Part shown: positions 19,012 through 44,826 of the stretch, in pieces | Layout: each line of letters begins with the position of its first letter | Numbering within the stretch: the stretch's first letter is position 1 | Virus record (IMG/VR): IMGVR_UViG_3300048014_000015 | Coordinates: 1-64,000 of that record | Strand: one strand, 5' to 3' | From: a virus | DNA length: 64,000 nt | Made by a program: the position numbers and the translations under genes | The notes under the pieces: generated by a model | The model's input: the letters and a program-made list of their open reading frames with translations, nothing else | The model's database searches: none | What the model was told of the DNA's origin: nothing

Positions 19012-19035
19012 AATGTTTAACCCATGGGTTAGGTG

Positions 19036-19117
19036 TGGTAGTGGTGGGAATCGAACCCACAAGCTTTTCAGCGACCGATTTTAAATCGATTGTGTTTACC
19101 AGTTTCACCACACTACC
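19036..19117 (-). tRNA. tRNA-Leu (anticodon UAA), type II with long variable arm
   Basis: Manual cloverleaf: acceptor GGTAGTG/CACTACC, 3-bp D stem, anticodon loop TTTAAAA, variable arm GCT-GAAA-AGC, T arm GTGGG-TTCGATT-CCCAC. No encoded CCA. Confidence 0.85.
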
Positions 19118-22613: not shown

Positions 22614-24323
22614 TTAGGTTATATCCCCCCTATCCCACTTAGAAGGACTAGTACTACTTGAAGTACCACCTCCATTAATACCGAAGAAATTCCATCTATT
22701 GGGGGCACCAACTAAAGAGTTTGGCAGCAGCATTATATCACTGTTGTCAACGTGTCTGGTATCTCCTAATACTGGTCTAAGTTTATTAGGATTGGGTACA
22801 GATTCAGGACCAACAGATAGCGGAACACCTTCTGGAAATGCATGTAATAACCCCATGCCTATGGTTACACATCTATCATCGTGTCTTCCCGCCTCATGGT
22901 CGAATCTATAACCCCACATAGTAGGTTTGGTAATGAGCATTGATAATTCTTGTTCTAATGTCTGATCTTCTATAGGTATAATACGACCATTTTCTACATA
23001 ATGTTGTGGTAACCTACCAGCATCTGGCGACCATGATACCATTCTATTCTGAATAGAGGTCTTCAATATTTGTGCCATACGGTAGTTAGCTTTCCCCCCC
23101 CTATACTCGAATCTAATAACACGTATACCAATTCTTTCGTAGTATATCGCTAGTCCTTCCATTTGTGCAGGGTCGACTATCAATGCTGATAGGTTAAAAT
23201 TTTTCCTAACAACCTCTATCCATGCCTGTACGCTCCTGCCTTCCATATACCTAGGATCATTGTAGTTATCTTGTAATATAGGTATTCTTAATTCATGCGT
23301 ACCTTGCCAGCAATCGAGACGATCTACGATAGCTTTATTAGTTTCTGGTTCTAGGTGCATAACACCTAACGAACACCTATCACGAACACCCCCATAGTCA
23401 ACAACTGCGTAGTACTGGGTGTATCGTCCTCCATATGTACGCTCCCTAAGGTTGAAGTCCCTACATTTTAGACATTCTTCTTCAGTTAGGTATCCATGTT
23501 CTTCTCCTGGATCAACCCATCTATTTTTATATAGTCTATCACGTTCTCCGGGCATCATACCTTGAGATGCATCGGCTATCTTTGAATCATCCATCCACGA
23601 TGGTAGCGGCTTACCTACTGGTGCTTCAAAGAACGACCAGTATTTAGATTTTTCACACCTATTGCGTTCTTTCCATTGCCAGCTACCTTTCAATCCTGCA
23701 TTCGTGCTAACAACTAATACACAGTATGGACGTTTATTTATTGAACCTAATATAAATGACTCCCAAAATAATTTACTCTCTTCATGCTGCCAGTGTGTAA
23801 GTTCCTCAACTACAATCATATCTGGGAATGCTCCAGATTGTGTATATGCATTTTTTGTTAGAACAGATAACTCACCCCCACTACTACCAACAGCCTTTAA
23901 GTCGGATACCTGCATTCTTTCAGCTATCCAAGGATTATCAGAACATATACCTCTCATGGCTTTTGTAATGAGACTTGCTTGATCTTCTGTACCAGCACAC
24001 ACAACTATATTTAATCTCCTCCTACTCCAACCAAGTAACCAACACAATTGCCTTGCTGTCTCATGTGTCTTATCACTACCCTTGTGATAACCATTCCAGA
24101 ACCACCTAGGACCATTATAGGTATTATTAATCCCAGCTAAAGAATCTATAGCTGGTGCAACCCTCATACTGCGTTCCCATTGCCATCGTTCTGCAATGAG
24201 ACGGAATACTAGTTTCTTTGGTTGTGCGTCTACCACAACGTGAGATAGGAAATTCAAATAACCTAGCGAACTTTCGTAAGCAGCTAGGTTATAAATTTCT
24301 TCTAGTGTACTTTGTTCAGACAT
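22614..24323 (-). CDS. terL: terminase large subunit
   Basis: Deviant Walker A (HKGSDKT), Walker B (DMIVVEELTHW), and C-terminal RNase-H-like nuclease acidic residues (YAVVDYGG, LIVDP, RHDDRCV). Confidence 0.8.
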   Translation of the reverse strand: MSEQSTLEEIYNLAAYESSLGYLNFLSHVVVDAQPKKLVFRLIAERWQWERSMRVAPAIDSLAGINNTYNGPRWFWNGYHKGSDKTHETARQLCWLLGWSRRRLNIVVCAGTEDQASLITKAMRGICSDNPWIAERMQVSDLKAVGSSGGELSVLTKNAYTQSGAFPDMIVVEELTHWQHEESKLFWESFILGSINKRPYCVLVVSTNAGLKGSWQWKERNRCEKSKYWSFFEAPVGKPLPSWMDDSKIADASQGMMPGERDRLYKNRWVDPGEEHGYLTEEECLKCRDFNLRERTYGGRYTQYYAVVDYGGVRDRCSLGVMHLEPETNKAIVDRLDCWQGTHELRIPILQDNYNDPRYMEGRSVQAWIEVVRKNFNLSALIVDPAQMEGLAIYYERIGIRVIRFEYRGGKANYRMAQILKTSIQNRMVSWSPDAGRLPQHYVENGRIIPIEDQTLEQELSMLITKPTMWGYRFDHEAGRHDDRCVTIGMGLLHAFPEGVPLSVGPESVPNPNKLRPVLGDTRHVDNSDIMLLPNSLVGAPNRWNFFGINGGGTSSSTSPSKWDRGDIT

Positions 24324-25369: not shown

Positions 25370-25492
25370 TGCCTCTGGTGGGTCTCGCAGCCCACAAGTA
25401 CAATACACTTCTAGATTTTCACTAGTTAAGTTATATAGTATTGTACCAAACGGGTCTTAACCGCTCCGCTTTACTAATTTGCGTACAGAGGC
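25370..25492 (-). ncRNA. 123-nt tRNA-like element (non-canonical; possible pseudo-tRNA or tRNA with a ~50-nt inserted arm)
   Basis: Perfect 7-bp acceptor GCCTCTG/CAGAGGC plus A. 3-bp D stem. Anticodon-like arm AGCGG-TTAAGAC-CCGTT. 10-bp extra arm GGTACAATAC/GTATTGTACT. T-like arm GTGGG-CTGCGAGA-CCCAC with an 8-nt loop and no TTC. Confidence 0.45.
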
Positions 25493-25496
25493 ATAG

Positions 25497-25569
25497 TCTT
25501 CCCGGTGCGACTTGAACGCACAACATACGTCTTAGAAGGACGTTACTCTATCCATTGAGTTACGGTAGG
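25497..25569 (-). tRNA. tRNA-Arg (anticodon UCU), weak acceptor stem
   Basis: D arm ACTC-AATGGATA-GAGT, anticodon arm ACGTC-CTTCTAA-GACGT, T arm GTGCG-TTCAAGT-CGCAC. Acceptor CCTACCG/CGGGAAG pairs only 5 of 7. Confidence 0.6.
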
Positions 25570-25659
25570 GGGAGGAATTGCACCTTCCGACCGCTTAGCT
25601 TCTATCTATACATAGTATACATAGTACAGATTTAGGTTCGCGGTCTCTATGGCCTACCG
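25563..25659 (-). ncRNA. 97-nt tRNA-like element lacking a D arm
   Basis: Perfect 7-bp acceptor CGGTAGG/CCTACCG. 6-bp helix GACCGC/GCGGTC enclosing an 8-bp hairpin ATCTGTAC/GTATAGAT. T-like arm GGAAGG-TGCAATT-CCTCCC. Its 3' strand is the same 7 nt used as the 5' acceptor strand of tRNA-Arg. Confidence 0.4.
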
Positions 25660-25662: not shown

Positions 25663-25733
25663 TCCGCCCTGATGGAATTGAACCATCATTCGCAGCTTAT
25701 AAGACTGCCGTTCTGCCATTGAACTAAGGGCGG
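25663..25733 (-). tRNA. tRNA-Ile (anticodon UAU)
   Basis: Manual cloverleaf: acceptor CCGCCCT/AGGGCGG, D arm GTTC-AATGGCA-GAAC, anticodon arm GCAGT-CTTATAA-GCTGC, T arm GATGG-TTCAATT-CCATC. 71 nt. Confidence 0.85.
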
Positions 25734-25747: not shown

Positions 25748-26038
25748 CTATTCACTGTTTTCGTACTCTTCTAGTTTTTTGAAGAAATCTTTTACTCGTA
25801 TAGACCATGTAGACGAATTTAACTTAGCTTCTCGCAATAGGTTGATAGCTTCCATAGCAAAAGGTCTCTCTTTTTCGATAACATCAGCTATCTCACGTAG
25901 ATCAGTTATCCCGCGTCTCTCTTTTTCGATAACATCGGCTATCTCACGTAGAATAGTAACAGGATCGTCAGTCATTGAAATTCGTTCGCGTCCCCTCAAT
26001 TTCCTTATTGTTCTGAACATTTCGTGAATACTACCCAT
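25748..26038 (-). CDS. hypothetical protein with an in-frame 17-aa tandem duplication; paralogue of 26379..26573
   Basis: LREIADVIEKER occurs twice. The C-terminus ...AINLLREAKLNSSTWSIRVKD matches ...AIILLEKAKLSSSTWSIRVNE. Confidence 0.6.
   Translation of the reverse strand: MGSIHEMFRTIRKLRGRERISMTDDPVTILREIADVIEKERRGITDLREIADVIEKERPFAMEAINLLREAKLNSSTWSIRVKDFFKKLEEYENSE
25864..25952. repeat. 38-bp direct repeat, period 51 bp (one mismatch)
   Basis: gtctctctttttcgataacatc[a/g]gctatctcacgtaga at 25864-25901 and 25915-25952. Confidence 0.85.
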
Positions 26039-26378: not shown

Positions 26379-26573
26379 CTAACCTATTGTATTTTGAGAG
26401 AAGTGAGCCATCAACTCTACTAGCTGTTTCCGTAGTGTTTCATTAACTCTGATTGACCATGTAGAGGAACTTAGTTTAGCTTTTTCTAATAGAATTATGG
26501 CCTCTTTTAATAGTGGACGTTCCTTATCAATAGCATCTGTTAACTCATTTAAGATAGTAGTACCACTCATCAC
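26379..26573 (-). CDS. hypothetical protein (paralogue of the 25748..26038 C-terminus)
   Basis: DAIDKERPLLKEAIILLEKAKLSSSTWSIRV. Confidence 0.6.
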   Translation of the reverse strand: MMSGTTILNELTDAIDKERPLLKEAIILLEKAKLSSSTWSIRVNETLRKQLVELMAHFSQNTIG

Positions 26574-26938: not shown

Positions 26939-27511
26939 CTAAGAGTTTGATACTCTAACTGCCTCAGCATCTGACTCAGGTACTACCCTCACCACCTCAG
27001 CATCTTGAACATCAATAGTATCGGAAAGTTCTTTAGGTTTGTTCACATCATTAAATGAAACACCATTAGCCTCTAACTTCAGTCTAATGGCCGCAATATC
27101 ATCAGGACTATATTTCTTCTGTTGGTTATGTTTGGAATACATACCATAGTGTTTCATTAATAGGTCTAGTGCCCCTTTAGCTGAGTGATAATCTCTATCT
27201 CGCATGGCATAGAGATAAATTCTCTTCATTTTTTCGATTACTTCTTCTTTCTCACCTTGTTTTTTAGCAATATACTTACACTCTTCTTCATCAATAATCT
27301 TTTGCACAATCAAACTTTTGAACAATTTAGCCGCACATGACTTAGCTACTTCATCCTTCATATCACCATTTTCATCAAAAACAGCCCTATAAGCCCTACC
27401 TGTATCATAGTCAATTAGGTATTCTCGAGCAAACCGCTCATGTCTACGCTCAATTACAGTTTTATTATTATTTTTCTGTAACATCTTAACAACGAGATTA
27501 TCCATAGCCAT
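26939..27511 (-). CDS. terS: terminase small subunit (Terminase_2-like)
   Basis: RHERFAREYLIDYDTGRAYRAVF...AAKLFKSLIVQKIIDEE resembles the conserved N-terminal HTH region of Terminase_2 small subunits. Confidence 0.7.
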   Translation of the reverse strand: MAMDNLVVKMLQKNNNKTVIERRHERFAREYLIDYDTGRAYRAVFDENGDMKDEVAKSCAAKLFKSLIVQKIIDEEECKYIAKKQGEKEEVIEKMKRIYLYAMRDRDYHSAKGALDLLMKHYGMYSKHNQQKKYSPDDIAAIRLKLEANGVSFNDVNKPKELSDTIDVQDAEVVRVVPESDAEAVRVSNS

Positions 27512-28257: not shown

Positions 28258-30678
28258 CTATACAATGTTGTTTAGGTTATATTCCTGACCTATTGACCTA
28301 ACTTGATTGTATAACGTCTTAAATGCACTTGTCAAGCGGAATCTAGCAGTTCTTACAGGAAATGGCAGATGGGTCGGAACATATTGTTCCATAACACCGA
28401 TCCTAGGTAAGTACATTAACAAAGATTCCATATCCCTTAAATTTTTACCACACCTACTAGCTAAAGTCTTAGGCTCTAACCCCTCATCTCCATCACTACT
28501 AGCATCTAACAACACCCTCACTAAATCCATAGCCCAACCATCGCTGGTATCTAGTGCAACCTTATAGGTTATTGCAACTACCTGCCTATCTATAGGTCGT
28601 TGCATTACCAAAGCTAAAAACCTAATGAGTTTTACTAGTTGCTTTGATACACGAGCAGGGAGAGACTTTTCAGCAAAGCTTTCTAGACTGGAATTCCTGG
28701 ATGGTCTGCCTCTCATACGCTCAATAAACTTAGCTAATGTACCTAGCTTTACTAACACATCATATGGAACCCCAGGTAAGGTAAGACTATTAGTATCTAC
28801 ACCTAACCTAAGATAGTTTATATATCCGCCAGTTAGTTGTCTAGCTCTGAGATAGTCAGGGTTATCTACACTCTCAGCAGAACCAGTTACTACACCTGAC
28901 CCAGCTTGTTCTTGCATAGCTTTCATAACAATGTCGTCTTCTAACCTATCACTAATTCCCTTTACAATTATATAGTCAATAAATCTTGGACCTAGTTCGG
29001 TATCGTCAAAGTATTTAATCCGTGGAGTACCAGCTAATAACCACGTTCCCCGCCAACCTGAGTACGACCGTTTAATTGAGTTATTGTACACTTTTTCAAT
29101 CTCTCCATCATATATAGCCCTAGCTTGTCCTATTATCTCCTCTGCTCTAGGATGAGTAACAAGTGTTGCGCCTTCCTTGGTAATCAAACATTTGTCGAAC
29201 CATCGAGCTACTAAAGAATGATCCTTACCATCTCCCAAATCCATACCTGAAAAGAAACCATTCATACCATCGTTAAGTATTGTATAACGATCATTTGTTC
29301 CTAGTGCTTTACACAATTGAGATTTATAGGTTGATGGCGGAGATACTAACCTAACCCAAAGAGGCTCACCAACTCCTCTGACAGAGCTAACACAAGCGAG
29401 CGAAACAGCCAGGGCACCATGTAACTCGGGTGTCCACTTAGCCGCTAACTTGAATGAGTCTGTTAGCTCATTCCACGAATTACACTCAATAGGTCTAATT
29501 CGACCAACACCAACATTAGAACCACTACTAGAATTATTTGAACTACTAGAACTTGAACCTACAGGAGTATTAGAACTAAGCAACCATTCACCAGGAACAG
29601 GACGAACATAAGACAGCAATTTACCTATATCCTTTCCATCTTTAATCCAATCCCTCACATCGTATTTATCAGGTATATCTGGATCATATCCCTTACCGTC
29701 TAAATTCCAATCCAACCACGACACGGACAAGGGATGACTTGAACTATCATTCTGACTAGCCATTATTCCTACAGCACGTTTAGTACCTGATAGTGATGGT
29801 TGATAGGTAGTCTTAGTCTTCTCGTTAACCTTTGGATGGTCGTTATCGTATAGAAAAACAACATGCTTATTAGCAATATACCTAACCCAACCCTTATTGA
29901 ATATCCCACACCCTGGAACACCTATCACCACATAATTACCGTTAGGTTTATTCCTCTCAAAAGAACTACCTGTATTTGAACCTAACACACTATCTAAAGC
30001 TACAGCATCCCAAACACCCTCACAGATATATATGGTTTCAGCTTCTTGTAGTTCCGTAGTGATGGCAGAACTACCGTTAACTATTCTAGGCAGATGGATA
30101 CCGTGAGATTCACCCTCAGTGAATCCGGGAGTAATCCACAGTTCGTACCGTGGGGTTCCATCAGGTTTATTCTTCTGACGAGTACGGCGATATAATTGAA
30201 CTATGTTCGGTGGGTGCTTTACCCCATATCCAGGTACTAGCCAATCACCAGTAATAACGCTCTTACATATACCCCATCGTCTGAGAGACTCAACAGATAG
30301 CCTTCTATCCGTGGATAGCTCTTGATAGTCTATAGGTTTGGTATTGGTGTAGGAAATTCTCCACAAATATTTGATAAAACCGTAGTGATTACCTGTGATC
30401 GGGTCGTTCTTATCATCTTTGTACTGATCCTGCCAGTTGCAAACCTTACAATCACTCCGAGAGGTGTTTGTATCGATGTAAAATTTAGGCTTATCACAGA
30501 ACGGACAAATAGCCAACCACTCTCGGGTATCTCTGCGAACAAACTCGACACCATGGAACCGATAGGGGAAGATAGCCCTAGGCTCTGTGGTGGGGTTCCC
30601 ACTACTACTACTAGCTGACTGGCTCTGTGATAGGTTTGCAGCAGGGATACTAGGGGTAGGGGTATCTTTCTGTGGCAC
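28258..30678 (-). CDS. DNA primase (zinc finger + TOPRIM) with a large C-terminal helicase-like/unknown domain
   Basis: CPFC...x17...CKVC zinc motif. TOPRIM residues IYICEGVWDAVAL and FLYDNDHP. The C-terminal 400 aa have only a degenerate P-loop-like SPPSTYKS. Confidence 0.8.
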   Translation of the reverse strand: MPQKDTPTPSIPAANLSQSQSASSSSGNPTTEPRAIFPYRFHGVEFVRRDTREWLAICPFCDKPKFYIDTNTSRSDCKVCNWQDQYKDDKNDPITGNHYGFIKYLWRISYTNTKPIDYQELSTDRRLSVESLRRWGICKSVITGDWLVPGYGVKHPPNIVQLYRRTRQKNKPDGTPRYELWITPGFTEGESHGIHLPRIVNGSSAITTELQEAETIYICEGVWDAVALDSVLGSNTGSSFERNKPNGNYVVIGVPGCGIFNKGWVRYIANKHVVFLYDNDHPKVNEKTKTTYQPSLSGTKRAVGIMASQNDSSSHPLSVSWLDWNLDGKGYDPDIPDKYDVRDWIKDGKDIGKLLSYVRPVPGEWLLSSNTPVGSSSSSSNNSSSGSNVGVGRIRPIECNSWNELTDSFKLAAKWTPELHGALAVSLACVSSVRGVGEPLWVRLVSPPSTYKSQLCKALGTNDRYTILNDGMNGFFSGMDLGDGKDHSLVARWFDKCLITKEGATLVTHPRAEEIIGQARAIYDGEIEKVYNNSIKRSYSGWRGTWLLAGTPRIKYFDDTELGPRFIDYIIVKGISDRLEDDIVMKAMQEQAGSGVVTGSAESVDNPDYLRARQLTGGYINYLRLGVDTNSLTLPGVPYDVLVKLGTLAKFIERMRGRPSRNSSLESFAEKSLPARVSKQLVKLIRFLALVMQRPIDRQVVAITYKVALDTSDGWAMDLVRVLLDASSDGDEGLEPKTLASRCGKNLRDMESLLMYLPRIGVMEQYVPTHLPFPVRTARFRLTSAFKTLYNQVRSIGQEYNLNNIV

Positions 30679-30826
30679 TTTGGTACTACCTCTCTCGTAA
30701 AAACTGGGGTCGGTAAACAGTCGTGGAGAATTTTTCGGAAACTTTTTTCCTGCTCAAAAACACTGGAATTTCTGGCGTATTCGCAGATTCCGAAAGAGCA
30801 TTAGGTGAAAAAACAAACTCCTGATA

Positions 30827-30855
30827 TTGACAGTTAGCAGCTGTCGGCTTAAAAA
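30827..30855 (+). promoter_or_regulatory. sigma70-like promoter with dyad (TTGACAG-N7-CTGTC), -10 TAAAAA
   Basis: TTGACA 30827-30832, 17-nt spacer, TAAAAA 30850-30855. Faces the GC-rich island. Confidence 0.55.
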
Positions 30856-30884
30856 GATCTTACCACAGTGGTCAAGGTGATCCA

Positions 30885-30928
30885 CTGGGGGAATTAACCT
30901 ATCACAGTTTTGAGGGGAAGTCATGGCA
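30885..30928 (+). repeat. partial copy of the island cassette-boundary repeat
   Basis: ctggggaattaacctatcacagttttgaggggaagtcatggca is identical to 31222-31265, including RBS, ATG and the first codons (MAR). Confidence 0.85.
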
Positions 30929-31159
30929 AGGGCACTGGTCAACGCGAACGAGTTCATCGGTCGCAACGCGAAGATGGACGCTCTGCTCCGATACGTCTTC
31001 GAGACCTGTGAAAGGCCGCACGGCCTCAATCCGGGCACGCTTCAGGTCTGGGAGGCGATGATGTTCCTTGGTGTCGTGAACTGCGGTGCAGACGGCCGAG
31101 CATGGCTTTCTGAGGGCGGCAAGGAACTGTTCAAGCTGGCGGATCGTGGGTCAAGGTGA
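30923..31159 (+). CDS. hypothetical protein (GC-rich island ORF A, 78 aa)
   Basis: GAGGGGA RBS 5 nt upstream of the ATG. GC-rich codon usage unlike the backbone. Confidence 0.6.
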   Translation: MARALVNANEFIGRNAKMDALLRYVFETCERPHGLNPGTLQVWEAMMFLGVVNCGADGRAWLSEGGKELFKLADRGSR

Positions 31160-31164
31160 GTAAA

Positions 31165-31245
31165 AACAGGTGTGACCAGCGGCAGGTAGGTGCAAGCCCT
31201 ATCCACACCTCTCCCCAATGTCTGGGGAATTAACCTATCACAGTT
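31165..31245 (+). repeat. 81-bp cassette-boundary repeat, copy 1
   Basis: aacaggtgtgaccagcggcaggtaggtgcaagccctatccacacctctccccaatgtctggggaattaacctatcacagtt. One mismatch to 32258-32338. Contains AGGTGTG/CACACCT and CCCCA/TGGGG stems. Confidence 0.9.
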
Positions 31246-31258
31246 TTGAGGGGAAGTC

Positions 31259-32245
31259 ATGGCACGGGTCGAACAGTACTTGCCGGTTGGAACAGTGGTC
31301 ACCGCTCGCCCACAGGGAGGAAAGGCGATTGAATGGACCACAAAAAGGGAGGTGACAATCGCGGATCATGTCCAACAGGATTGCCCGCTCGGGGGCAAGA
31401 CAAAAACCCTCACCGGAACTTTTCTTCGCGACCGTCAATGCACGGTCAGCGGTGTGGAAATTTGGTTCTCGGCCCGATCACTCCGTCAGAGAATCGCGGT
31501 GGACAAGTGGGAGGTCTGTGATGATGCATACAACCACCAACTCACCAAAATCGACTACGATATCCCGACTTCTTTGGGGCAGGCGTACGCAGTGAGCGTA
31601 GCCGCTGAACTCCACAAAATTGGTGTCCGTTCATCAAATTCCTGTTGGTTTGTCCGCACCGGAGATACTCCCTACTATCTGTTAGGAGAGATGGAAGAGA
31701 TGGGCGTACGCAAAGTTAGTGCCGACAGGATTGACCCATCAGAGACAAAAAAGTTGATTGCTCGAATGATAGTCGAATTGTCCGAGCAAGTAGAAAAATA
31801 CGTTCGGGGGGCTAATGAGACTCTCGTGTCGGCAACGGCGAAGTTGCAAGAGTCACAAGAGAATGGAATAGATGAGGAGAAGGCGGTCAACGACTGCCTG
31901 ATAGCTGCTAAAGCTTTGGAAAAGAGGTTGGAAAAATACAAGGAACAAATGCTCGCTGGAGCGAACAAACTGGGGATTCGCTCTTCGGCATGGAATGCTG
32001 ACAGGCTATCACAGATTGCTCAGGTGACGGGCAGTGAGCTACGAAAACGGGCAGCAGCATACAAACGAGCGGCGGATATCCTAGTGCAGAGTACAGATAC
32101 TGATTTGCACGCGGCTGGCATAGTCGCACAAGTATCAGCCCTACCAGCGGGGGTCATGGCTGATATTCTTCGCGAAGCTGGACATGAATCGGCAGCGGAA
32201 GAATTGACCGCTGAATACTCACTCCTGGATACACTGGGTGATTAG
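31259..32245 (+). CDS. hypothetical protein (island ORF B, 328 aa, C-terminal coiled-coil-like half)
   Basis: Same leader and RBS as ORF A. Long ORF in the only sensible frame. No recognisable motif. Confidence 0.7.
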   Translation: MARVEQYLPVGTVVTARPQGGKAIEWTTKREVTIADHVQQDCPLGGKTKTLTGTFLRDRQCTVSGVEIWFSARSLRQRIAVDKWEVCDDAYNHQLTKIDYDIPTSLGQAYAVSVAAELHKIGVRSSNSCWFVRTGDTPYYLLGEMEEMGVRKVSADRIDPSETKKLIARMIVELSEQVEKYVRGANETLVSATAKLQESQENGIDEEKAVNDCLIAAKALEKRLEKYKEQMLAGANKLGIRSSAWNADRLSQIAQVTGSELRKRAAAYKRAADILVQSTDTDLHAAGIVAQVSALPAGVMADILREAGHESAAEELTAEYSLLDTLGD

Positions 32246-32257
32246 TACAGGAGTTAG

Positions 32258-32338
32258 AACAGGTGTGACCAGCGGCAGGTAGGTGCAAGCCCTACCCACA
32301 CCTCTCCCCAATGTCTGGGGAATTAACCTATCACAGTT
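32258..32338 (+). repeat. 81-bp cassette-boundary repeat, copy 2
   Basis: Identical to 31165-31245 except one base (t/c). Followed by a 7-bp duplication (cacagtt). Confidence 0.9.
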
Positions 32339-32374
32339 CACAGTTTTGAGCAACCCCTGACTGGAGACTGACCC

Positions 32375-32692
32375 GTGACGACCGACACCATGACCATGAC
32401 CCTGCAATCGTTCCTCGCCGAGCATGCGATCTGCCGCGTGTGGTACGCGAGCGTCGCGTCCCCCGGCGGGAGCGAGTTGGTTCTCAACACCGACGACGAC
32501 TACTGCGACTCGCAATCTCTGCTGGAGACACCGCCGGTCCCGGCAGCCCTCGACCTGGGGGGCACCGTGACCCGCGACGCGGACGGCGAGTACCGCTGGA
32601 AGGTCGATTCGCTCGCGGGCGTGGACTTGCGGGACTGCGCCAGGTCCACCGTCTACGACCTGACCGTCTGGGGCGATGTCATTCAGGGCTGA
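32375..32692 (+). CDS. hypothetical protein (island ORF C, ~105 aa, very GC-rich)
   Basis: GTG start 9 nt after GGAGA; alternative ATGs at 32390 and 32396. Strong GC3 bias in this frame only. Confidence 0.6.
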   Translation: MTTDTMTMTLQSFLAEHAICRVWYASVASPGGSELVLNTDDDYCDSQSLLETPPVPAALDLGGTVTRDADGEYRWKVDSLAGVDLRDCARSTVYDLTVWGDVIQG

Positions 32693-33031
32693 CGACGACC
32701 GTCGCGAACACTATACGGACGGAGACCCGATCTACTCCGTCTGCAACCGCGACACGAATATTACTATCCTACTATCCTATCGTACATCATGTATAGGGTG
32801 TGTATCTCTGTGGGTGTCCAATGAATGTCAGACTATTAGAGAAGCTGTCGATCAGTGGCTAACTCACGGAGGGAGTGAGTGAGAAGACGGCTTACCAGGA
32901 AGTGGGATGAGGGTGGGGTTGTTGCCCTGCCCCCTTTAATCGTTTACAGGATGCTTCAGGATCGACGATCTACGTGCTGTGTGTGAAATCACTCAGGGGG
33001 ATAGCTCGAATCGATCCTGGAGTGAGTAAAC

Positions 33032-33925
33032 CTAACAGTAGGTAGAGTGGGGAGCAGGGAGCACTATAGGACGACACCTAGAACGTCTGATTAGATTAGA
33101 ATTAGATAAACGATCATTAGACTTATTAGTTTTAGAATGATCTATCTTAGAGTGCCCTACTTTAGAATGATCTACTTTAGAATCATCATCACTATTTGGT
33201 ATACCCCCTAACTTACCTATAACTAATTTATGTACTAATTTACGTATACCATCTTGAGCATTGTGTCCCATACTCCTTAACTTACGAATCTCTATAGGTG
33301 ATAACCAGGTAGTAACTGGTTTCTTCTTTTTATTAGGACTAATTTTAGGTTTACTATACTGTTTTAAACCTAACACAGTATTAGATTTGGTACTGTGTGG
33401 TAAACCGCATCGCTTTTGAGCGGTGGTTAGTACGACCCTCCTGGATTTCATATACCGCATCGCTGTATCTGATCGTCCCATCTTCATTGCGGCATCTAAT
33501 AGTTTTTTCCTACGATGTTCTGGTAGATTACCAAACTCATGAGCCGCTTCATCATCTAAACTTCTTCTACTACTATGTACTCTAGAATTAGCTGCGAGTG
33601 GTGGACCAACATCTGGTCCATGATGCATCCTAGCAAACCAATCTCCAGGTAGTTCGTCAGGTTGTGGTATATCTGTGTCATCGTATAACCAGTATCTCCA
33701 TCTATGGGGTATAAATGGTCCCTCTGAATAAAGATTATGATGTTCTTCAGGTTCACCACGATCACTATAAGCAGTAGGTATTTTACGCATTAAACCTAAT
33801 GCACGATAACCTTTTGCTCTTGGATCACCAATCTCCTCTAAGTGGTCAGCTAGTACCATCCTGGTATGATGGTCATCTGGATGTTGGTCTAAGTGAGCCT
33901 GCATAGCTTCTTCTGTATCTGTCAT
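33032..33925 (-). CDS. TIGR02996-like domain protein
   Basis: N-terminus EEAMQAHLDQHPDDHHTRMVLADHLEEIGDPRAKGYRALG. Confidence 0.75.
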   Translation of the reverse strand: MTDTEEAMQAHLDQHPDDHHTRMVLADHLEEIGDPRAKGYRALGLMRKIPTAYSDRGEPEEHHNLYSEGPFIPHRWRYWLYDDTDIPQPDELPGDWFARMHHGPDVGPPLAANSRVHSSRRSLDDEAAHEFGNLPEHRRKKLLDAAMKMGRSDTAMRYMKSRRVVLTTAQKRCGLPHSTKSNTVLGLKQYSKPKISPNKKKKPVTTWLSPIEIRKLRSMGHNAQDGIRKLVHKLVIGKLGGIPNSDDDSKVDHSKVGHSKIDHSKTNKSNDRLSNSNLIRRSRCRPIVLPAPHSTYC

Positions 33926-33964
33926 ATCTGCACCAACACTTTCTTGAAAGAAATAATATATAGG

Positions 33965-36076
33965 TTATTTACCTATGGAAGTTACTGTTCTAGGTAACAC
34001 CCCCCCAGTAGCCCAATTCTCTGCATGTCTTTCTACTGAAACCCTTATAGGTATATTAATACCTTTACTAGCAGACTCCATAATACTACGAATTTCGTTA
34101 GCCCTGGAATCAGTAAATTTATAATCGTTACCCACTATTGGAAAGTCAAACACGAGTTCATCATGTACAGTTAGTATCATCCAGGCATCGAATCCATTAG
34201 ATCGCCATTCTGTTAGTTTTTGGTCACAGAGTACCATAGCTTTATTTAACACTTGTGCGGCAGTAGAACTAACATGATAACATAAAGGAGTAGTCGGTTC
34301 AACCTTACCATAATACCCACGTTTAGCCTGAATAGGAAACCCACGTTCAGGATCAATTGTCGTATCGGGAATAGTTGAAACATAATTTTGTTTCTCAGCC
34401 AATCTTAGCAAGTCTTTAGATAGCTTGTCGATCCTGGGGAATCGACTAGCAATCTTGTGGTAACCCCCTGATACTCGATATGTCTGATCTACCTTCTTTT
34501 CTTGTGCTCCATACTGCCTTGCAAAACTTCCATTTTTTGTCCATTGATACCAACTATCTTCAAATAAGGTCTTAACGTCTTTACCATGTTTCTTAAATAG
34601 CTCTGGATGTAGTGTATCGAATATTAGTAAGTGATAGCTACCATAATACGGTGGTTCTTCGGGATTGTCGAATACCTTTGCCATCTCTACTTCATTAGCC
34701 TCATATGCTGGTATCGCCAGTTCAATACCCGTATAGTCACAGCTATACCATATCCGCCCCTCTCGTGGACCGAAACACTTCCTAAGATTGGTTTTCTTAT
34801 GTTTACTAACGTTAGCTTGGTTAGGATTATTATGTGAAAACCTTAAACCTATAGTACCAGTTGGATTCAGGTTAGGGTATAATGTAGCATACCTGGCACC
34901 AATATGGTCCAGGATTGGTTGTTCTTTATCTCGTATACAAAATCTTTCATATGCTCTTAAATAACCTAAAGCAGTATCATACTCACTCTTCTCATTTAGA
35001 ATCTTAATAAATTTCTGTTCTAATGAATGTTCTGGTAATGTTAACTCATACTCCTCTTTAACTTCAGTATCAAATACTGGATTACCTAGTGGGTCTTTAC
35101 TCTTACTTTCACTACGACGTAGAACAGGTAATCCCATTACCTCAAATACGAACTTATCGAGATTTTTGTTACGTCCACGTTTAGGTAATTCAAGTTTGTA
35201 GTTATACTCTTCAGCTATACCTATACAAATTTGTTCCAGGTCATTGGATTTCTCTGTAAACTCTTTCACCATTTCTAAATGAGTTTTGAGTTTATAGGTA
35301 ATACCATGATGTTCCATCCTATGTACTACTGGAAGTATCTTCAAACGTTCCCGATATATCCTATCTAACCTTCGTCGTAACACCTCTTCCCACATTACAC
35401 TTATTAACGGTATTAAACAGGAACTATCCACATCAGCATAAGTAGTTGCAGCTGTAAGCCAATTTTCATATCCATAACCTGCAGTCCACTTCTCACCTTC
35501 AAATCTGGCTATACACTCCGGTAACCATGTATCAGCCATCCATGCTTTACCTTCCTTATCACTATTACCCCTGGTAGAGGGTAATAATTGGTATCCCTCT
35601 CCGTCGGTCAAACCATCTGAAGCTAATTTCCAATCCTTCATATAGACCCTACTCCTACACAACCTCCTAGCAGTTTGTACGATAGTTTCCATCTTAGTTT
35701 CAAATGGTTTAATATCCCTATCTAAGTATTTTTTAACTACAGAAGTTAGGTCGTGATTTTCTTGAGAAGAAAGCATATGAGCCATAAATAGGGTATCTTC
35801 TACCTTATGCCATAAGTTCTCCAGGTTTATTCCAATAGCTCCGAGCATTTTTAAATCGAACTTTGCATTGTGGAACACCAACTTGTCTGCACTATCTAAT
35901 AGGTTTTGTATTTTACCTACATCACTTTTATCGACTAAAACTTTTCTGGTTTTTGGATCGACTTGCCATTGCCATGTACGCTGTACGTCCCTATCATCAC
36001 AAGTAGTAACTAGATACGGACGACAGCCGTGAAAAGTATCTAGTCCAGTCGATTCTACGTCTACTCCGAGAATCAT
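33965..36076 (-). CDS. family A DNA polymerase with 3'-5' exonuclease domain
   Basis: Exo I GVDVESTGLD, Exo II HNAKFDLKML. Pol motif A CDYTGIELAI, motif C LTVHDELVFD. Confidence 0.9.
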   Translation of the reverse strand: MILGVDVESTGLDTFHGCRPYLVTTCDDRDVQRTWQWQVDPKTRKVLVDKSDVGKIQNLLDSADKLVFHNAKFDLKMLGAIGINLENLWHKVEDTLFMAHMLSSQENHDLTSVVKKYLDRDIKPFETKMETIVQTARRLCRSRVYMKDWKLASDGLTDGEGYQLLPSTRGNSDKEGKAWMADTWLPECIARFEGEKWTAGYGYENWLTAATTYADVDSSCLIPLISVMWEEVLRRRLDRIYRERLKILPVVHRMEHHGITYKLKTHLEMVKEFTEKSNDLEQICIGIAEEYNYKLELPKRGRNKNLDKFVFEVMGLPVLRRSESKSKDPLGNPVFDTEVKEEYELTLPEHSLEQKFIKILNEKSEYDTALGYLRAYERFCIRDKEQPILDHIGARYATLYPNLNPTGTIGLRFSHNNPNQANVSKHKKTNLRKCFGPREGRIWYSCDYTGIELAIPAYEANEVEMAKVFDNPEEPPYYGSYHLLIFDTLHPELFKKHGKDVKTLFEDSWYQWTKNGSFARQYGAQEKKVDQTYRVSGGYHKIASRFPRIDKLSKDLLRLAEKQNYVSTIPDTTIDPERGFPIQAKRGYYGKVEPTTPLCYHVSSTAAQVLNKAMVLCDQKLTEWRSNGFDAWMILTVHDELVFDFPIVGNDYKFTDSRANEIRSIMESASKGINIPIRVSVERHAENWATGGVLPRTVTSIGK

Positions 36077-41761: not shown

Positions 41762-42040
41762 ATGAGAATATACAAAACTTTAATAGATTATGGGGATAAA
41801 GCTAAGAAAACTAAATTTCATTTTATTATTTCTAACTTGTCTGGGGAATTGATGTATAGCTATGATATAGGGTCTTATTTTTACGATAAAGAGATATTTA
41901 CCTATTGGAAACCTATTGCAGACTTAATTTTTGATAGGTGGATGATAGAAAAAGTTACAGGTGTACCAGTACCTTACGGATATGATAGGTTAAAAGAATT
42001 GATATATGGTTCATCAGATACAGAAGATATAATTATTTAA
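41762..42040 (+). CDS. hypothetical protein
   Basis: 92-aa ORF with an AAGGA RBS. Confidence 0.55.
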   Translation: MRIYKTLIDYGDKAKKTKFHFIISNLSGELMYSYDIGSYFYDKEIFTYWKPIADLIFDRWMIEKVTGVPVPYGYDRLKELIYGSSDTEDIII

Positions 42041-42059
42041 TACTGCTATCTAATACCTG

Positions 42060-42189
42060 TATTGGTATTAAGTATTGGTATTAAGTATTGGTATTAAGTA
42101 TTGGTATTAAGTATTGGTATTAAGTATTGGTATTAAGTATTGGTATTAAGTATTGGTATTAAGTATTGGTATTAAGTATTGGTATTAAG
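42060..42189. repeat. 10 x 13-bp perfect tandem repeat (tattggtattaag)
   Basis: Counted directly: ten identical head-to-tail units with no spacers. Each unit is itself tatt-gg/tatt-aag. Confidence 0.95.
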
Positions 42190-42340
42190 GAGAATCTTTT
42201 CCCACCCAACCGCCCTATATTATATATATAGGTATAGAGGTATAGTAGATACTTAACATAAGACATATACTAAACTACCAGTCAATAGTAGTTTTCGGCC
42301 GACCATCCCCCATTGCGAAAAACACATACCACTACAGAAA

Positions 42341-42410
42341 ACACACCTATCCCCAGGAATACACACCTATCCCCAGGAATACATACCTATACCAGGAATA
42401 CATACCTATG
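42341..42410. repeat. ~3.5 copies of a 20-bp tandem repeat (acacacctatccccaggaat) running into the HNH start codon
   Basis: Two perfect copies (42341-42360, 42361-42380), one degenerate 19-nt copy, and a partial copy containing the ATG at 42408. Confidence 0.85.
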
Positions 42411-42812: not shown

Positions 42813-42872
42813 ACCCCACATACCACCAGATAACCGGATATGTTATTTCTCTCAAAAAAGTTGCTTTGGGGC

Positions 42873-42901
42873 TGGACAGTGTGTAGCTGTCATGCTACTA
42901 T
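42873..42901 (+). promoter_or_regulatory. sigma70-like promoter with dyad (TGGACAG-N7-CTGTC), -10 TACTAT
   Basis: TGGACA 42873-42878, 17-nt spacer, TACTAT 42896-42901. Confidence 0.55.
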
Positions 42902-42979
42902 GTTACTGGTTAGGTAGGGAATTAACCTAACGAATACTTGATAGTTTGATTTAACCTATCACACTTTTGGAGTACTACG

Positions 42980-43762: not shown

Positions 43763-43778
43763 AAATTCCTCCCAGGTG
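43743..43778 (+). other. 14-bp perfect hairpin spanning the stop codon of 42980..43762
   Basis: cacctgggaggaat-ctgtaaaa-attcctcccaggtg. No T tract follows, so it is not a classical terminator. Confidence 0.8.
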
Positions 43779-43780
43779 GG

Positions 43781-44811: not shown

Positions 44812-44826
44812 TTTCCTCCCAGTCAG

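What the first reader, a model, noticed from the sequence alone, without database searches (positions are those of the whole stretch)
25370..25659. Two oversized, non-canonical tRNA-like elements packed between the tRNAs, one sharing a strand with tRNA-Arg
**Seen (minus strand).** The array reads Ile, 3 nt, a 97-nt element, Arg, 4 nt, a 123-nt element.

*97-nt element (25563-25659)*
- Perfect 7-bp acceptor-like helix CGGTAGG/CCTACCG.
- T-like arm with loop TGCAATT.
- No D arm.
- In its place, a 6-bp helix GACCGC/GCGGTC encloses an 8-bp hairpin.
- Its 3' strand CCTACCG is the same 7 nt that must serve as the 5' acceptor strand of tRNA-Arg. That strand pairs only 5 of 7 with the tRNA-Arg 3' end, so the two helices are mutually exclusive.

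*123-nt element (25370-25492)*
- Perfect acceptor helix.
- D-like arm and anticodon-like arm (loop TTAAGAC, giving the unusual anticodon AAG).
- A 10-bp extra arm carrying about 30 nt.
- An 8-nt T-like loop lacking TTC.

**Inference.** These could be processed tRNA-like RNAs (decoys, primers, Y-RNA-like or RNase P/Z substrates), intron- or insert-bearing tRNAs, or decaying pseudo-tRNAs.
Basis: partly seen in the sequence, partly recalled or inferred. Interest (0 to 1): 0.7.

Follow-up and report, generated by a model that had tools for sequence, protein, structure and literature searches.

The report
Two oversized tRNA-derived RNAs in phage
A 64-kb environmental phage packs two unusually large tRNA-derived RNA genes between ordinary tRNA genes: one is a leucine tRNA with a giant extra arm, and the other is a tRNA-like stub that borrows one strand of the neighbouring arginine tRNA. 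They resemble the still-unexplained small stable RNAs of phage T4.

Summary
On the minus strand the array reads tRNA-Ile(UAU), 3 nt, a 97-nt element, tRNA-Arg(UCU), 4 nt, a 123-nt element.

- **123-nt element.** It is a type-II tRNA-Leu(AAG). ARAGORN calls it at default settings once the inner 31 nt of its 52-nt variable arm are replaced by a tetraloop. Its D arm is the signature of phage tRNA-Leu genes. An independent assembly reproduces nt 31-123 exactly.
- **97-nt element.** It cannot be rescued as a cloverleaf. It has an acceptor/T-arm minihelix, and its T arm is identical to that of a real phage tRNA-Met. A long composite hairpin sits where a variable arm would be.
- **Shared strand.** Its 3' acceptor strand is the 5' acceptor strand of tRNA-Arg. 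In the joint transcript the 97-nt helix wins (P~0.99, 8.7 kcal/mol). Twelve related phage tRNA-Arg genes all have fully paired acceptor stems.

No homologue of either element was found. Relatives of the phage carry no tRNAs at this locus, so covariation could not be tested.

The closest analogues are T4 rnaC and rnaD. Similar uncalled oversized tRNA-like elements occur in other phage tRNA arrays. Function is inferred, not shown. This is a new variant of a known but unexplained kind.

The parts
25663..25733 (-). Canonical tRNA-Ile(UAU), the first gene of the array.
   Evidence: ARAGORN. Rfam RF00005 67.4 bits. ATA makes up 42% of Ile codons in the phage.
25563..25659 (-). The 97-nt tRNA-like element. 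It has an acceptor/T-arm minihelix and a long composite arm, with no D arm and no anticodon loop.
   Evidence: Fold -31.7 kcal/mol, z -3.4. No ARAGORN or Rfam call in any mode.
25653..25659 (-). 5' acceptor strand of the 97-nt element, CGGTAGG. It starts 3 nt after the end of tRNA-Ile.
   Evidence: Sequence. Pair probabilities are 0.84-0.99 in the joint fold.
25646..25652 (-). Single-stranded linker CCATAGA, in the place of the D arm. It contains ATAG.
   Evidence: Compare the D loops TTAGT (123-nt element) and ATAGT (L024 tRNA-Met).
25589..25645 (-). Composite long arm. The 6-bp helix GACCGC/GCGGTC encloses an 8-bp hairpin with a 12-nt loop. The arm abuts the T arm with 0 nt between them, which is the variable-arm position.
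25607..25626 (-). 9-nt tandem duplication (2.2 copies) forming the apical loop of the hairpin in the 97-nt element.
   Evidence: Tandem Repeats Finder. After removing one copy the hairpin keeps 8 bp with a triloop.
25570..25588 (-). T arm of the 97-nt element, GGAAGG-TGCAATT-CCTCCC. The stem has an A.C mismatch, and the loop reads U54-G55-C56.
   Evidence: The 18-mer is identical to the T arm of tRNA-Met(cat) at L024 5060-5136, which scores 46.6 bits on Rfam tRNA. None of the 20 hits in cellular genomes lies in a tRNA.
25563..25569 (-). Shared strand CCTACCG. It is the 3' acceptor strand of the 97-nt element and the 5' acceptor strand of tRNA-Arg.
25497..25569 (-). tRNA-Arg(UCU), with a defective acceptor stem (C2.A71 and A4.G69).
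   Evidence: ARAGORN. Rfam 52.1 bits. Twelve phage tRNA-Arg genes with the same D arm all have 7 of 7 acceptor positions paired. AGA makes up 35% of Arg codons.
25370..25492 (-). The 123-nt element: a type-II tRNA-Leu(AAG) with a 52-nt variable arm and an 8-nt T loop. The discriminator is A at 25370. CCA is not encoded.
   Evidence: ARAGORN at default settings calls tRNA-Leu(aag) once the inner 31 nt of the variable arm are replaced by GAAA. Fold -42.3 kcal/mol, z -4.3.
25467..25483 (-). D arm CGC-AAATTAGTAAA-GCG of the 123-nt element. It is Leu-type, with A in place of G18.
   Evidence: The motif TACGCAAATTRGTAAAGCG has 8 IMG/VR hits, 6 of them ARAGORN tRNA-Leu genes in phage arrays.
25449..25465 (-). 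Anticodon arm AGCGG-TTAAGAC-CCGTT. U33 and A37 are present. The anticodon AAG lies at 25458-25456.
25397..25448 (-). 52-nt variable arm: a 10-bp stem, an internal loop, and a 4+4-bp distal hairpin with loop TGAAAAT.
   Evidence: Identical in the independent scaffold L054.
25378..25395 (-). T arm GTGGG-CTGCGAGA-CCCAC. The stem is identical to that of the phage's own tRNA-Leu(UAA). The loop holds the core T-G-C-G-A with one extra C.
19035..19117 (-). Canonical tRNA-Leu(UAA) of the same phage, a paralogue-like relative of the 123-nt element.
   Evidence: ARAGORN. Rfam 59.9 bits. It shares CTTGTGGG...CCCACCA and the D loop AAAyTrGTAAA.

Best explanation
Both elements are tRNA-derived RNA genes. 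They are probably transcribed as part of the long minus-strand operon and cut out by the host tRNA-processing machinery, like the tRNAs they sit between.

**123-nt element.**
- It is a type-II tRNA-Leu(AAG) whose variable arm has grown to 52 nt.
- All its stems are intact, and it keeps U33, A37, G53-C61, A58 and discriminator A73.
- It most likely still behaves as a tRNA: cut by RNase P, given CCA, and possibly charged by LeuRS.
- If decoding, it would read CUU, or CUU/CUC/CUA if A34 is deaminated.
- The arm would project from the elbow region as an extra handle.

**97-nt element.**
- It is not a decoding tRNA. It keeps only the acceptor/T-arm coaxial stack, which is the part RNase P recognises.
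- It also has a single-stranded D-loop substitute and one long arm at the variable-arm position.
- It has no 3' acceptor strand of its own and uses the 5' acceptor strand of tRNA-Arg.
- Its helix is perfect and forms first during transcription, whereas the Arg helix has two non-pairs. A given transcript should therefore fold into the 97-nt tRNA-like form, and tRNA-Arg cannot mature from that molecule.

**Comparison.** Functionally the pair is best compared with T4 rnaC and rnaD, the stable oversized RNAs at the end of that phage's tRNA cluster.

**Shown versus inferred.**
- Shown: the sequences, the folds, the tRNA ancestry, and the thermodynamic competition.
- Inferred: transcription, processing, charging, and any role as decoy or regulator.
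For: **Array register.**
- Spacers of 3-4 nt separate each element from the preceding tRNA.
- All genes lie on one strand.
- No promoter or terminator signal exceeds shuffled controls.

**123-nt element.**
- ARAGORN at default settings calls tRNA-Leu(aag) after only the variable arm is shortened; the native 8-nt T loop is kept.
- Its D-arm motif is diagnostic of phage tRNA-Leu: 6 of 8 IMG/VR hits, including a tRNA-Leu(aag).
- Its T stem and flanks are identical to those of the phage's own tRNA-Leu(taa).
- Every one of its 38 predicted stem pairs is standard: 36 Watson-Crick and 2 G.U.
- An independent assembly is identical over nt 31-123.
- The phage's canonical tRNAs match its three top codons (TTA 42%, ATA 42%, AGA 35%). 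CTT+CTA+CTC make up 41% of Leu codons.

**97-nt element.**
- Its T arm is identical to that of a bona fide phage tRNA-Met.
- The fold has z -3.4.
- Acceptor pair probabilities are about 0.99, against about 0 for the tRNA-Arg acceptor. Forcing the Arg helix costs 8.7 kcal/mol.
- Of 13 phage tRNA-Arg genes sharing the D arm, only this one has unpaired acceptor positions, and only this one has an upstream complement.

**Analogues.**
- In T4, rnaD and rnaC lie 1 nt and 6 nt after tRNA-Arg. rnaC contains a 91-nt acceptor/T-arm module with a 10-bp hairpin next to the T arm.
- Their role is unknown (PMC3014915).
- Uncalled oversized tRNA-like elements also occur in other phage arrays: L027 4200-4314, L061 6918-7102, L025 794-895.
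Against: **No comparative support.**
- No relative of the phage (terminase 36-76% identical, 18 loci) carries tRNAs or any similar sequence at this locus.
- No match was found in GenBank phages, IMG/VR or GTDB genomes.
- Conservation and covariation are therefore untested.

**No expression data.**

**Altered elbow.**
- Nucleotides that build the tRNA elbow are changed in both elements. Both have G at position 55. The 123-nt element also has A at position 18 and an 8-nt T loop.
- These changes could abolish tRNA function.

**Possible sign of relaxed constraint.** The 9-nt tandem duplication in the apical loop of the 97-nt element looks like unconstrained slippage.

**Cost to the phage.** Sacrificing tRNA-Arg(UCU) seems costly for a phage that uses AGA for 35% of its Arg codons.

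**Software.** Rfam's tRNA model gives no hit to either element, even at E<=10.
Confidence: 0.6

Rival explanations
1. Both elements are decaying pseudo-tRNAs with no function. They would be relics of duplicated tRNA genes that picked up insertions and loop mutations and have not yet been deleted. The overlap with tRNA-Arg would be the scar of a small deletion.
For: - Both are singletons, absent from all relatives.
- Near-universal elbow nucleotides are changed.
- There is a tandem duplication in a loop.
- The tRNA-Arg acceptor is damaged.
- The array lies in a hypervariable stretch of small orphan ORFs between o84 and o200.
Against: - All changes spare the stems. In the 123-nt element 38 of 38 predicted pairs are standard. 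In the 97-nt element 7/7, 6/6 and 8/8 pairs are standard in the acceptor stem, the 6-bp helix and the hairpin. Random decay would hit stems about as often as loops.
- The Arg 5' strand is not random. It still pairs 5 of 7 with its own 3' strand (about 1% by chance, my calculation) and 7 of 7 with the 97-nt element. That looks like selection for the upstream helix.
- Phage genomes are compact and lose non-functional DNA quickly (general knowledge).
Confidence: 0.2
2. The 97-nt element is not a separate RNA. It is a cis-acting 5' leader of tRNA-Arg that sequesters the tRNA's 5' acceptor strand in a tRNA-like decoy fold. This would delay or tune maturation of tRNA-Arg(UCU), acting as a structural switch resolved by a nuclease, a helicase or transcription kinetics.
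For: - The two helices share a strand and exclude each other, with an 8.7 kcal/mol bias.
- The 97-nt element has no 3' strand or discriminator of its own.
- tRNA-Arg(UCU) matches the phage's most-used Arg codon, so it should be needed.
Against: - Nothing in the sequence shows how the switch would be flipped.
- The equilibrium is so one-sided that tRNA-Arg would hardly form.
- The T arm, which matches a real tRNA T arm, is unnecessary for simple sequestration.
- I know of no precedent for such a leader in bacteria or phages (from memory; the literature search found none).
Confidence: 0.12
3. The signal acts at the DNA level. It would be, for example, an attP core carrying the 3' half of a host tRNA, or a packaging or recombination site between the small and large terminase genes. 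In that case it is not an RNA.
For: - Phage attP sites often contain the T arm and 3' acceptor strand of a host tRNA (PMC10865867).
- The array lies between terS and terL.
Against: - No integrase was found in the 29 ORFs scanned. The phage has PolA, primase-helicase and a PD-(D/E)XK nuclease, a lytic-type replication module.
- An attP core needs no complementary 5' strand, D arm or anticodon arm.
- The T-arm 18-mer occurs in no cellular tRNA in 185,579 genomes.
- The hairpin motif is not repeated elsewhere in the window.
Confidence: 0.03

Closest known systems
Phage T4 rnaC (species 1 RNA, 139 nt) and rnaD (species 2 RNA, 119 nt)
   Same: - They are oversized, stable, non-tRNA RNAs packed at the end of a phage tRNA cluster.
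- They lie 1 nt and 6 nt from the neighbouring gene, directly after tRNA-Arg(UCU), with tRNA-Ile upstream.
- rnaC contains a 7-bp terminal helix, a canonical T arm, and a 10-bp hairpin next to the T arm.
- Their function is unknown (PMC3014915).
   Different: - There is no sequence similarity (nhmmer against L019).
- rnaC has a canonical TTCGAAT T loop and a 46-nt 5' extension.
- rnaD shows no significant fold (z -0.8).
- Neither shares a strand with a tRNA.
- The T4 RNAs were shown experimentally to exist. These two elements were not.
Phage type-II tRNA-Leu genes, including tRNA-Leu(AAG) at L029 244-324
   Same: - The 123-nt element has their D arm, matching 19 of 19 positions of the pattern with R=A.
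- It also has discriminator A73, a Leu anticodon, a canonical anticodon loop and a 5-bp T stem.
- ARAGORN names it tRNA-Leu(aag) once the arm is shortened.
   Different: - Its variable arm is 52 nt. In those genes, which total 76-85 nt, it is about 8-15 nt.
- Its T loop is 8 nt with G at position 55.
- It has A in place of G18.
- Rfam tRNA gives no hit.
tRNA-like domain of tmRNA
   Same: The 97-nt element has the same topology. It runs acceptor stem, single-stranded D-loop substitute, long helix, T arm abutting that helix, then 3' acceptor strand (my knowledge of tmRNA architecture).
   Different: - ARAGORN in tmRNA mode finds nothing, and there is no Rfam tmRNA hit.
- It has G3-C70 rather than G3.U70.
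- The discriminator would be U.
- There is no room for a tag reading frame.
Overlapping tRNA genes of animal mitochondria
   Same: Two tRNA-type genes on one strand share acceptor-stem nucleotides. Only one complete product can therefore come from a given transcript (general knowledge).
   Different: - Those overlaps are usually 1-6 nt and are repaired by 3' editing or polyadenylation.
- Here a full 7-nt strand is shared.
- It serves opposite sides of the two helices: the 3' strand of one and the 5' strand of the next.
- The system is a phage.
Non-canonical tRNAs with long variable arms: allo-tRNAs (PMC5389517) and engineered aptamer-tagged tRNAs (PMC7590224)
   Same: - Long variable arms occur on otherwise functional tRNAs.
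- The abstract of PMC7590224 reports translationally active tRNAs carrying an added hairpin, so an enlarged arm need not destroy function.
   Different: - Allo-tRNAs have an 8/4 or 9/3 acceptor/T configuration. The 123-nt element is 7/5.
- No natural arm of 52 nt is described in those abstracts.

Membership tests
Canonical tRNA (Rfam RF00005 / ARAGORN) | Score at or above the family threshold (Rfam gathering score 29 bits; ARAGORN default threshold). | tested here: not met
   Neither element gives an Rfam hit even at E<=10 in a 701-nt search. ARAGORN makes no call in default, intron or mitochondrial mode. The 123-nt element is called only after its variable arm is shortened in silico.
Canonical tRNA (Rfam RF00005 / ARAGORN) | Cloverleaf: 7-bp acceptor stem, D arm, anticodon arm with a 7-nt loop (U33, purine 37), and a T arm with a 5-bp stem. 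| tested here: inconclusive
   The 123-nt element has all four arms, with U33 and A37. The 97-nt element has only the acceptor stem and T arm.
Canonical tRNA (Rfam RF00005 / ARAGORN) | T loop of 7 nt reading T54-T55-C56, and G18-G19 in the D loop. | tested here: not met
   The 97-nt element has TGCAATT. The 123-nt element has CTGCGAGA and TTAGT in its D loop. Of 62 phage tRNAs in the fetched loci, 60 have TTC and 60 have GG.
Type-II tRNA-Leu | 3-bp D stem with an 11-nt AAAyTGGTAAA-type D loop. | tested here: met
   123-nt element only: CGC-AAATTAGTAAA-GCG. The motif finds 6 tRNA-Leu genes among 8 IMG/VR hits. One G is changed to A.
Type-II tRNA-Leu | Leu anticodon, discriminator A73 and a long variable arm. 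| tested here: met
   Anticodon AAG, A at 25370, and a 52-nt arm. A phage tRNA-Leu(aag) exists at L029 244-324.
Type-II tRNA-Leu | Aminoacylation by LeuRS and use in translation. | not testable with these tools
   This needs charging assays or sequencing of charged tRNA.
T4 rnaC / rnaD | Sequence homology to the T4 RNAs. | tested here: not met
   nhmmer with both elements against L019 (T4 69500-73500) found no hit at E<=10.
T4 rnaC / rnaD | Oversized non-tRNA gene within a phage tRNA cluster, a few nt from a tRNA, with a tRNA-like T arm and terminal helix. | tested here: met
T4 rnaC / rnaD | Accumulates as a stable small RNA in infected cells. | not testable with these tools
   No expression data are available for this uncultured phage.
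tmRNA | G3.U70, an alanine-type acceptor, and a tag reading frame with a resume codon. | tested here: not met
   ARAGORN -m finds 0 genes. The pair is G3-C70. Only 65 nt lie between the acceptor stem and the T arm.
Intron-containing tRNA (group I or archaeal bulge-helix-bulge) | A recognisable intron whose removal restores a canonical tRNA. | tested here: not met
   - ARAGORN -i at default threshold makes no call. Calls at 80% threshold are inconsistent parses.
- There is no Rfam intron hit.
- The variable-arm stem is a perfect 10-bp helix without the two 3-nt bulges.
- The insert lies in the variable arm, not in the anticodon loop.
Y RNA-like (YrlA) | The 5' and 3' ends form the Ro-binding stem, and the tRNA-like module is internal. 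An Rfam model exists. | tested here: not met
   There is no Rfam hit. Here the ends form the acceptor-like helix itself. I did not search for an rsr gene.
allo-tRNA / tRNA-Sec type (8/4, 9/3, 8/5 acceptor/T) | Acceptor stem longer than 7 bp, with a correspondingly altered T stem. | tested here: not met
   The 123-nt element is 7/5. The 97-nt element is 7 plus 6 (with an A.C mismatch), or 7 plus 5 with one bulged C. In neither is the acceptor stem longer than 7 bp.

The most novel reading that the evidence does not exclude
The two elements may belong to a widespread, unannotated class of phage 'elbow-variant' tRNA mimics. Its features would be G55 T loops and a giant arm at the variable-arm position. 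T4 rnaC would be the founding member.

In this phage the 97-nt mimic and tRNA-Arg(UCU) would form a true two-state unit that shares one acceptor strand, so each transcript yields either a mimic or a tRNA.

The mimics would engage a host factor that reads the tRNA acceptor/T-arm/elbow without entering translation. Candidates are RNase P, the CCA-adding enzyme, a synthetase, or a tRNA-cleaving defence nuclease of the kind that phage tRNAs are now known to counter (PMC10264068, PMC11464382, PMC11555353, PMC13056530).
Probability: 0.15. Interest if true: 0.8.

Novelty: new variant of a known kind. Interest (0 to 1): 0.5.

Why it matters
**An old open question.** T4's species 1 and 2 RNAs have been known for about fifty years and still have no function (PMC3014915). 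This unrelated environmental phage shows the same habit: oversized tRNA-like genes tucked between tRNA-Ile/Arg-type genes.
- One element's ancestry can be read directly: tRNA-Leu with a five-fold enlarged variable arm.
- The other captures a strand of a neighbouring tRNA.

**A concrete hypothesis.** Such RNAs may be tRNA derivatives that keep the acceptor/T-arm face and a long arm beside the T arm.

**An annotation blind spot.** In the phage tRNA arrays fetched here, several elements of this sort escape ARAGORN and Rfam. Phage tRNA censuses, and codon-supply or anti-defence arguments built on them, may therefore be missing a class of genes.

**A rarity, if confirmed.** If the shared-strand arrangement really makes tRNA-Arg and the mimic mutually exclusive products, it would be a rare natural example of two RNA genes competing for one helix strand outside mitochondria.

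Tried and rejected
**Conventional re-annotation**
- I ran ARAGORN in standard, intron, mitochondrial and tmRNA modes and at lowered thresholds. Low-threshold calls were Ile(tat) for the 97-nt element and an Asn-with-intron parse for the 123-nt element. Both have poor, inconsistent stems and were rejected.
- Rfam found nothing for either element at the gathering threshold or at E<=10.

**Homologues through synteny**
- The terminase search returned 81 proteins.
- I fetched 18 related loci from Logan, JGI and IMG/VR. Gene order is conserved, but there are no tRNAs and no blastn or nhmmer similarity.
- GTDB genomes hold no relative.
- GenBank phages give no match to the region beyond the two canonical tRNAs.

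**Exact-pattern scans**
- The 37-mer across the junction gave 0 hits.
- The T arm of the 123-nt element hit only coding DNA by chance.
- The T arm of the 97-nt element gave one informative hit in IMG/VR. In cellular genomes it gave only chance or riboswitch-like hits.

**Neighbouring genes**
- The neighbouring ORF o75 has no homologue apart from itself.
- Neighbours have no Pfam or PHROG function.

**Other ideas tested**
- *Duplication masking an anticodon loop:* removing one copy of the 9-nt duplication in the 97-nt element does not give a tRNA.
- *Alignment to other tRNAs:* aligning the 97-nt element to tRNA-Ile, tRNA-Met and a 93-nt phage tRNA-Ile matches only the T arm.
- *Helix-plus-T-hairpin scan as a significance test:* rejected as too permissive.
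- *Tertiary covariation G18:U55 to A18:G55:* the 123-nt element and the L024 tRNA-Met fit. The G55 element at L066 350-422 keeps GG. I treat this as weak.
- *Archaeal intron, attP, promoter-hairpin and repeated-motif readings:* no support.
Full report
**1. What the window is**

The window is almost the whole of a roughly 64-kb phage genome from a metagenome.
- Genes run mostly on the minus strand (42 of the 48 ORFs selected).
- They include a large terminase (22614-24323), a small terminase (26939-27511; Terminase_2, phrog_51), a primase-helicase-like 806-aa protein (28258-30678), DNA polymerase A, an AAA_24 ATPase and a PD-(D/E)XK nuclease.
- No integrase was seen in the 29 ORFs scanned.
- G+C is about 37-40%.

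**2. The observation**

| Feature | Coordinates | Note |
|---|---|---|
| tRNA-Ile(UAU) | 25733-25663 | canonical |
| spacer TAT | 25662-25660 | 3 nt |
| 97-nt element | 25659-25563 | |
| tRNA-Arg(UCU) | 25569-25497 | overlaps the 97-nt element by 7 nt |
| spacer CTAT | 25496-25493 | 4 nt |
| 123-nt element | 25492-25370 | |
| ORF o75 | start 52 nt further on | |

- ARAGORN finds only Ile, Arg and a distant tRNA-Leu(UAA) at 19117-19035.
- Rfam scores Ile at 67.4 bits, Leu at 59.9 bits and Arg at 52.1 bits. It finds nothing for either element, even at E<=10.
The 97-nt element folds at -31.7 kcal/mol (z -3.4) and the 123-nt element at -42.3 kcal/mol (z -4.3).
- A crude scan for '7-bp helix plus T-like hairpin' gives 148 hits in the window, so helices alone are weak evidence. 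The case rests on the points below.

**3. The 123-nt element is a tRNA-Leu(AAG) with a giant variable arm**

Its parts, in order:
- acceptor GCCTCTG/CAGAGGC
- U8-A9
- 3-bp D stem with the 11-nt loop AAATTAGTAAA
- G26
- anticodon arm AGCGG-TTAAGAC-CCGTT, with U33 and A37
- 52-nt variable arm
- T arm GTGGG-CTGCGAGA-CCCAC
- discriminator A

Evidence for the tRNA-Leu assignment:
- I replaced only the inner 31 nt of the variable arm with GAAA, keeping its 10-bp stem and the native 8-nt T loop. ARAGORN at its default threshold then calls tRNA-Leu(aag). Arm length is therefore the only thing that blocks detection.
- The D-arm motif TACGCAAATTRGTAAAGCG has eight exact matches in IMG/VR. Six are ARAGORN tRNA-Leu genes (CAA, UAA, AAG, UAA, UAG, UAG) inside phage tRNA arrays. 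The anticodon AAG is therefore not unique to this phage.
- The T stem and its flanks (CTTGTGGG...CCCACCA) are identical to those of the phage's own tRNA-Leu(UAA).

Evidence bearing on function:
- All 38 predicted stem pairs are standard, 36 Watson-Crick and 2 G.U. Every deviation lies in a loop.
- A separately assembled scaffold (ERZ12298651 scaffold_115162, seen in three samples) is identical from the anticodon loop to beyond the 3' end. The odd arm and T loop are therefore not assembly errors.
- The three canonical tRNAs of the phage match its most-used codons: TTA 42% of Leu, ATA 42% of Ile, AGA 35% of Arg.
- CTT is 12% of Leu codons, and CTT+CTC+CTA together are 41%. A decoding role for an AAG (or IAG) tRNA-Leu is plausible but not shown.

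**4. The 97-nt element is tRNA-derived but not a tRNA**

Its parts, in order:
- acceptor-like helix CGGTAGG/CCTACCG
- 7-nt single strand CCATAGA
- 6-bp helix GACCGC/GCGGTC, enclosing an 8-bp hairpin whose 12-nt loop is a 9-nt tandem duplication
- with no spacer, the T arm GGAAGG-TGCAATT-CCTCCC

Findings:
- No software mode gives a credible cloverleaf, with or without the duplication.
- The 18-nt T arm has a single exact match in IMG/VR. That match is the T arm, in the same register, of a tRNA-Met(CAU) in a phage tRNA array (L024 5060-5136; Rfam 46.6 bits).
- In 185,579 cellular genomes the same 18-mer occurs 20 times, about the chance expectation, and never in a tRNA.
- The 3' part is therefore a phage-type T arm. 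The long arm sits where a type-II variable arm would sit. The D and anticodon arms are missing.

**5. The shared strand**

CCTACCG (25569-25563) closes the 97-nt element perfectly. It is also nt 1-7 of tRNA-Arg, where it pairs only 5 of 7 with CGGGAAG.
- In a joint fold of 25662-25493, the upstream helix has pair probabilities of 0.84-0.99 and the Arg acceptor has about 0. Forcing the Arg acceptor costs 8.7 kcal/mol.
- Twelve IMG/VR phage tRNA-Arg genes share the 20-nt D arm. All have 7 of 7 acceptor positions paired (Watson-Crick or G.U), and none has an upstream complement. The window's gene is the only exception on both counts.
- Compared with those genes, the 5' strand still looks like an Arg 5' strand. 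Against L056, positions 1 and 5-7 are retained and pair 3:70 is changed on both sides. Positions 2 and 4 match the upstream strand rather than the tRNA's own 3' strand.
- I infer that the upstream helix is the one kept by selection. From a given transcript, either the 97-nt RNA or an intact tRNA-Arg can be made, not both.

**6. A shared peculiarity**

- Both elements have G where tRNAs have the near-universal U55. The 97-nt element has T-G-C-A-A. The 123-nt element has T-G-C-G-A with one extra C.
- Of 62 ARAGORN tRNAs in all fetched phage loci, 60 have TTC. The single TGC case is the L024 tRNA-Met.
- That tRNA and the 123-nt element also have TAG instead of TGG in the D loop. The 97-nt element has ATAG in its linker.
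- A fourth G55 element, at L066 350-422 and not called by ARAGORN, keeps GG.
- I therefore regard an A18:G55 tertiary covariation as a weak lead only.

**7. Relatives**

- The terminase has 81 homologues (36-76% identity), mostly on 60-70-kb contigs from soil- and peat-type metagenomes.
- Eighteen loci were fetched. The order primase - o216 - terS - o84 - [variable small ORFs] - o200 - terL is conserved.
- None has a tRNA or any similarity to the RNA region.
- The array therefore sits in a hypervariable accessory slot and is so far unique to this genome.

**8. What it resembles**

- *T4.* The T4 tRNA cluster ends tRNA-Ile ... tRNA-Arg, 1 nt, rnaD (119 nt), 6 nt, rnaC (139 nt).
- *rnaC structure.* It contains a 91-nt module with a 7-bp terminal helix, a canonical T arm and a 10-bp hairpin directly before the T arm.
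- *rnaC/rnaD function.* The roles of both RNAs remain unknown (PMC3014915).
- *Other phage arrays.* A quick scan of the other arrays fetched here found further uncalled, oversized tRNA-like elements next to tRNAs. Examples are L027 4200-4314 (115 nt, Leu-type D arm, two hairpins in the variable region) and L061 6918-7102 (185 nt).
- *Enlarged variable arms.* Type-I tRNAs with added variable arms also occur: tRNA-Ile(UAU) of 93 nt and tRNA-Glu of 88 nt.
- *Aeromonas phage 1233.* It has an unannotated 102-nt element with the same D arm.
- The window's elements thus belong to a loosely defined, under-annotated kind, not to a brand-new one.

**9. Mechanism and confidence**

Most likely (0.6):
- Both elements are co-transcribed with the operon. 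No promoter or terminator signal exceeds shuffled controls.
- Both are released by RNase P and 3' trimming.
- The 123-nt RNA behaves as a tRNA-Leu carrying an extra arm.
- The 97-nt RNA is a non-decoding acceptor/T-arm mimic, made at the expense of tRNA-Arg.

Rivals:
- neutral decay (0.2)
- a cis-acting leader that tunes tRNA-Arg maturation (0.12)
- a DNA-level site (0.03)

An anti-defence or decoy role is attractive, given recent work on phage tRNAs and tRNA-cleaving immunity. It is pure inference here.

**10. Verdict**

- Novelty: a new variant of a known, unexplained kind.
- Interest is moderate. The shared acceptor strand and the 52-nt arm are unusual. The finding rests on a single genome, with no conservation or expression evidence.

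Noticed in passing
L025 794-895 (Aeromonas phage 1233, OR359403.1 32684-32785): An unannotated 102-nt tRNA-like element. It has a 10-bp terminal helix with one C.C mismatch, a D arm almost identical to that of the 123-nt element (TACGCAAATTGGTAAAGCG), an enlarged middle region and a canonical T arm. Neither ARAGORN nor Rfam calls it.
   Followed up: partly
L027 4200-4314; L061 6918-7102 and 7359-7438; L028 3349-3418 and 3429-3506: IMG/VR phage tRNA arrays contain further elements that ARAGORN does not call. Each has a 7-bp terminal helix and a canonical T arm. Several are oversized (115 nt and 185 nt) and lie next to called tRNAs.
   Followed up: partly
L029 959-1051; L028 4096-4183: Type-I phage tRNAs carrying an added variable-arm hairpin: a tRNA-Ile(tat) of 93 nt and a tRNA-Glu(ttc) of 88 nt. 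Variable-arm enlargement therefore seems to recur in phage tRNA genes.
   Followed up: no
L066 350-422 (minus strand): A 73-nt tRNA-like element in a phage contig, with T loop TGCAAAT (G at position 55), a 5-bp D stem and a 4-bp stem with a 5-nt loop in place of an anticodon arm. ARAGORN does not call it.
   Followed up: no
L024 5060-5136: A phage tRNA-Met(cat) scoring 46.6 bits on Rfam. It has T loop TGCAATT, TAG instead of TGG in the D loop, T at position 37, and an A.C mismatch in the T stem. Its T arm is identical to that of the 97-nt element.
   Followed up: partly
window 25864-25954 (minus strand, inside ORF 25748-26038): A roughly 54-nt direct repeat in the coding sequence duplicates the peptide LREIADVIEKER. 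The 64-aa ORF at 26379-26573 looks like a paralogue, with DAIDKERP...LLEKAKLSSSTWSIRV. Both lie in the same hypervariable slot as the tRNA array.
   Followed up: no
window 30001-34000 and 42001-48000: G+C rises to 0.48-0.49 and 0.42-0.44 respectively, against about 0.37 elsewhere. The second stretch also changes coding strand (ORFs at 42980-47522 lie on the plus strand). These may be mosaic modules of different origin.
   Followed up: no
L054 and L055 (ERZ12298651 scaffolds): In this second assembly the contigs break on both sides of the array. One ends inside tRNA-Ile and the other starts in the anticodon loop of the 123-nt element. Window positions about 25722-25463 are left unassembled, which could reflect low coverage or strain variation in the array.
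   Followed up: no
L036, L041, L049, L050 (cellular genomes): Several chance hits of GGAAGGTGCAATTCCTCC lie in non-coding G+C-rich contexts that recall the conserved core of cobalamin riboswitches. I did not check them with Rfam.
   Followed up: no
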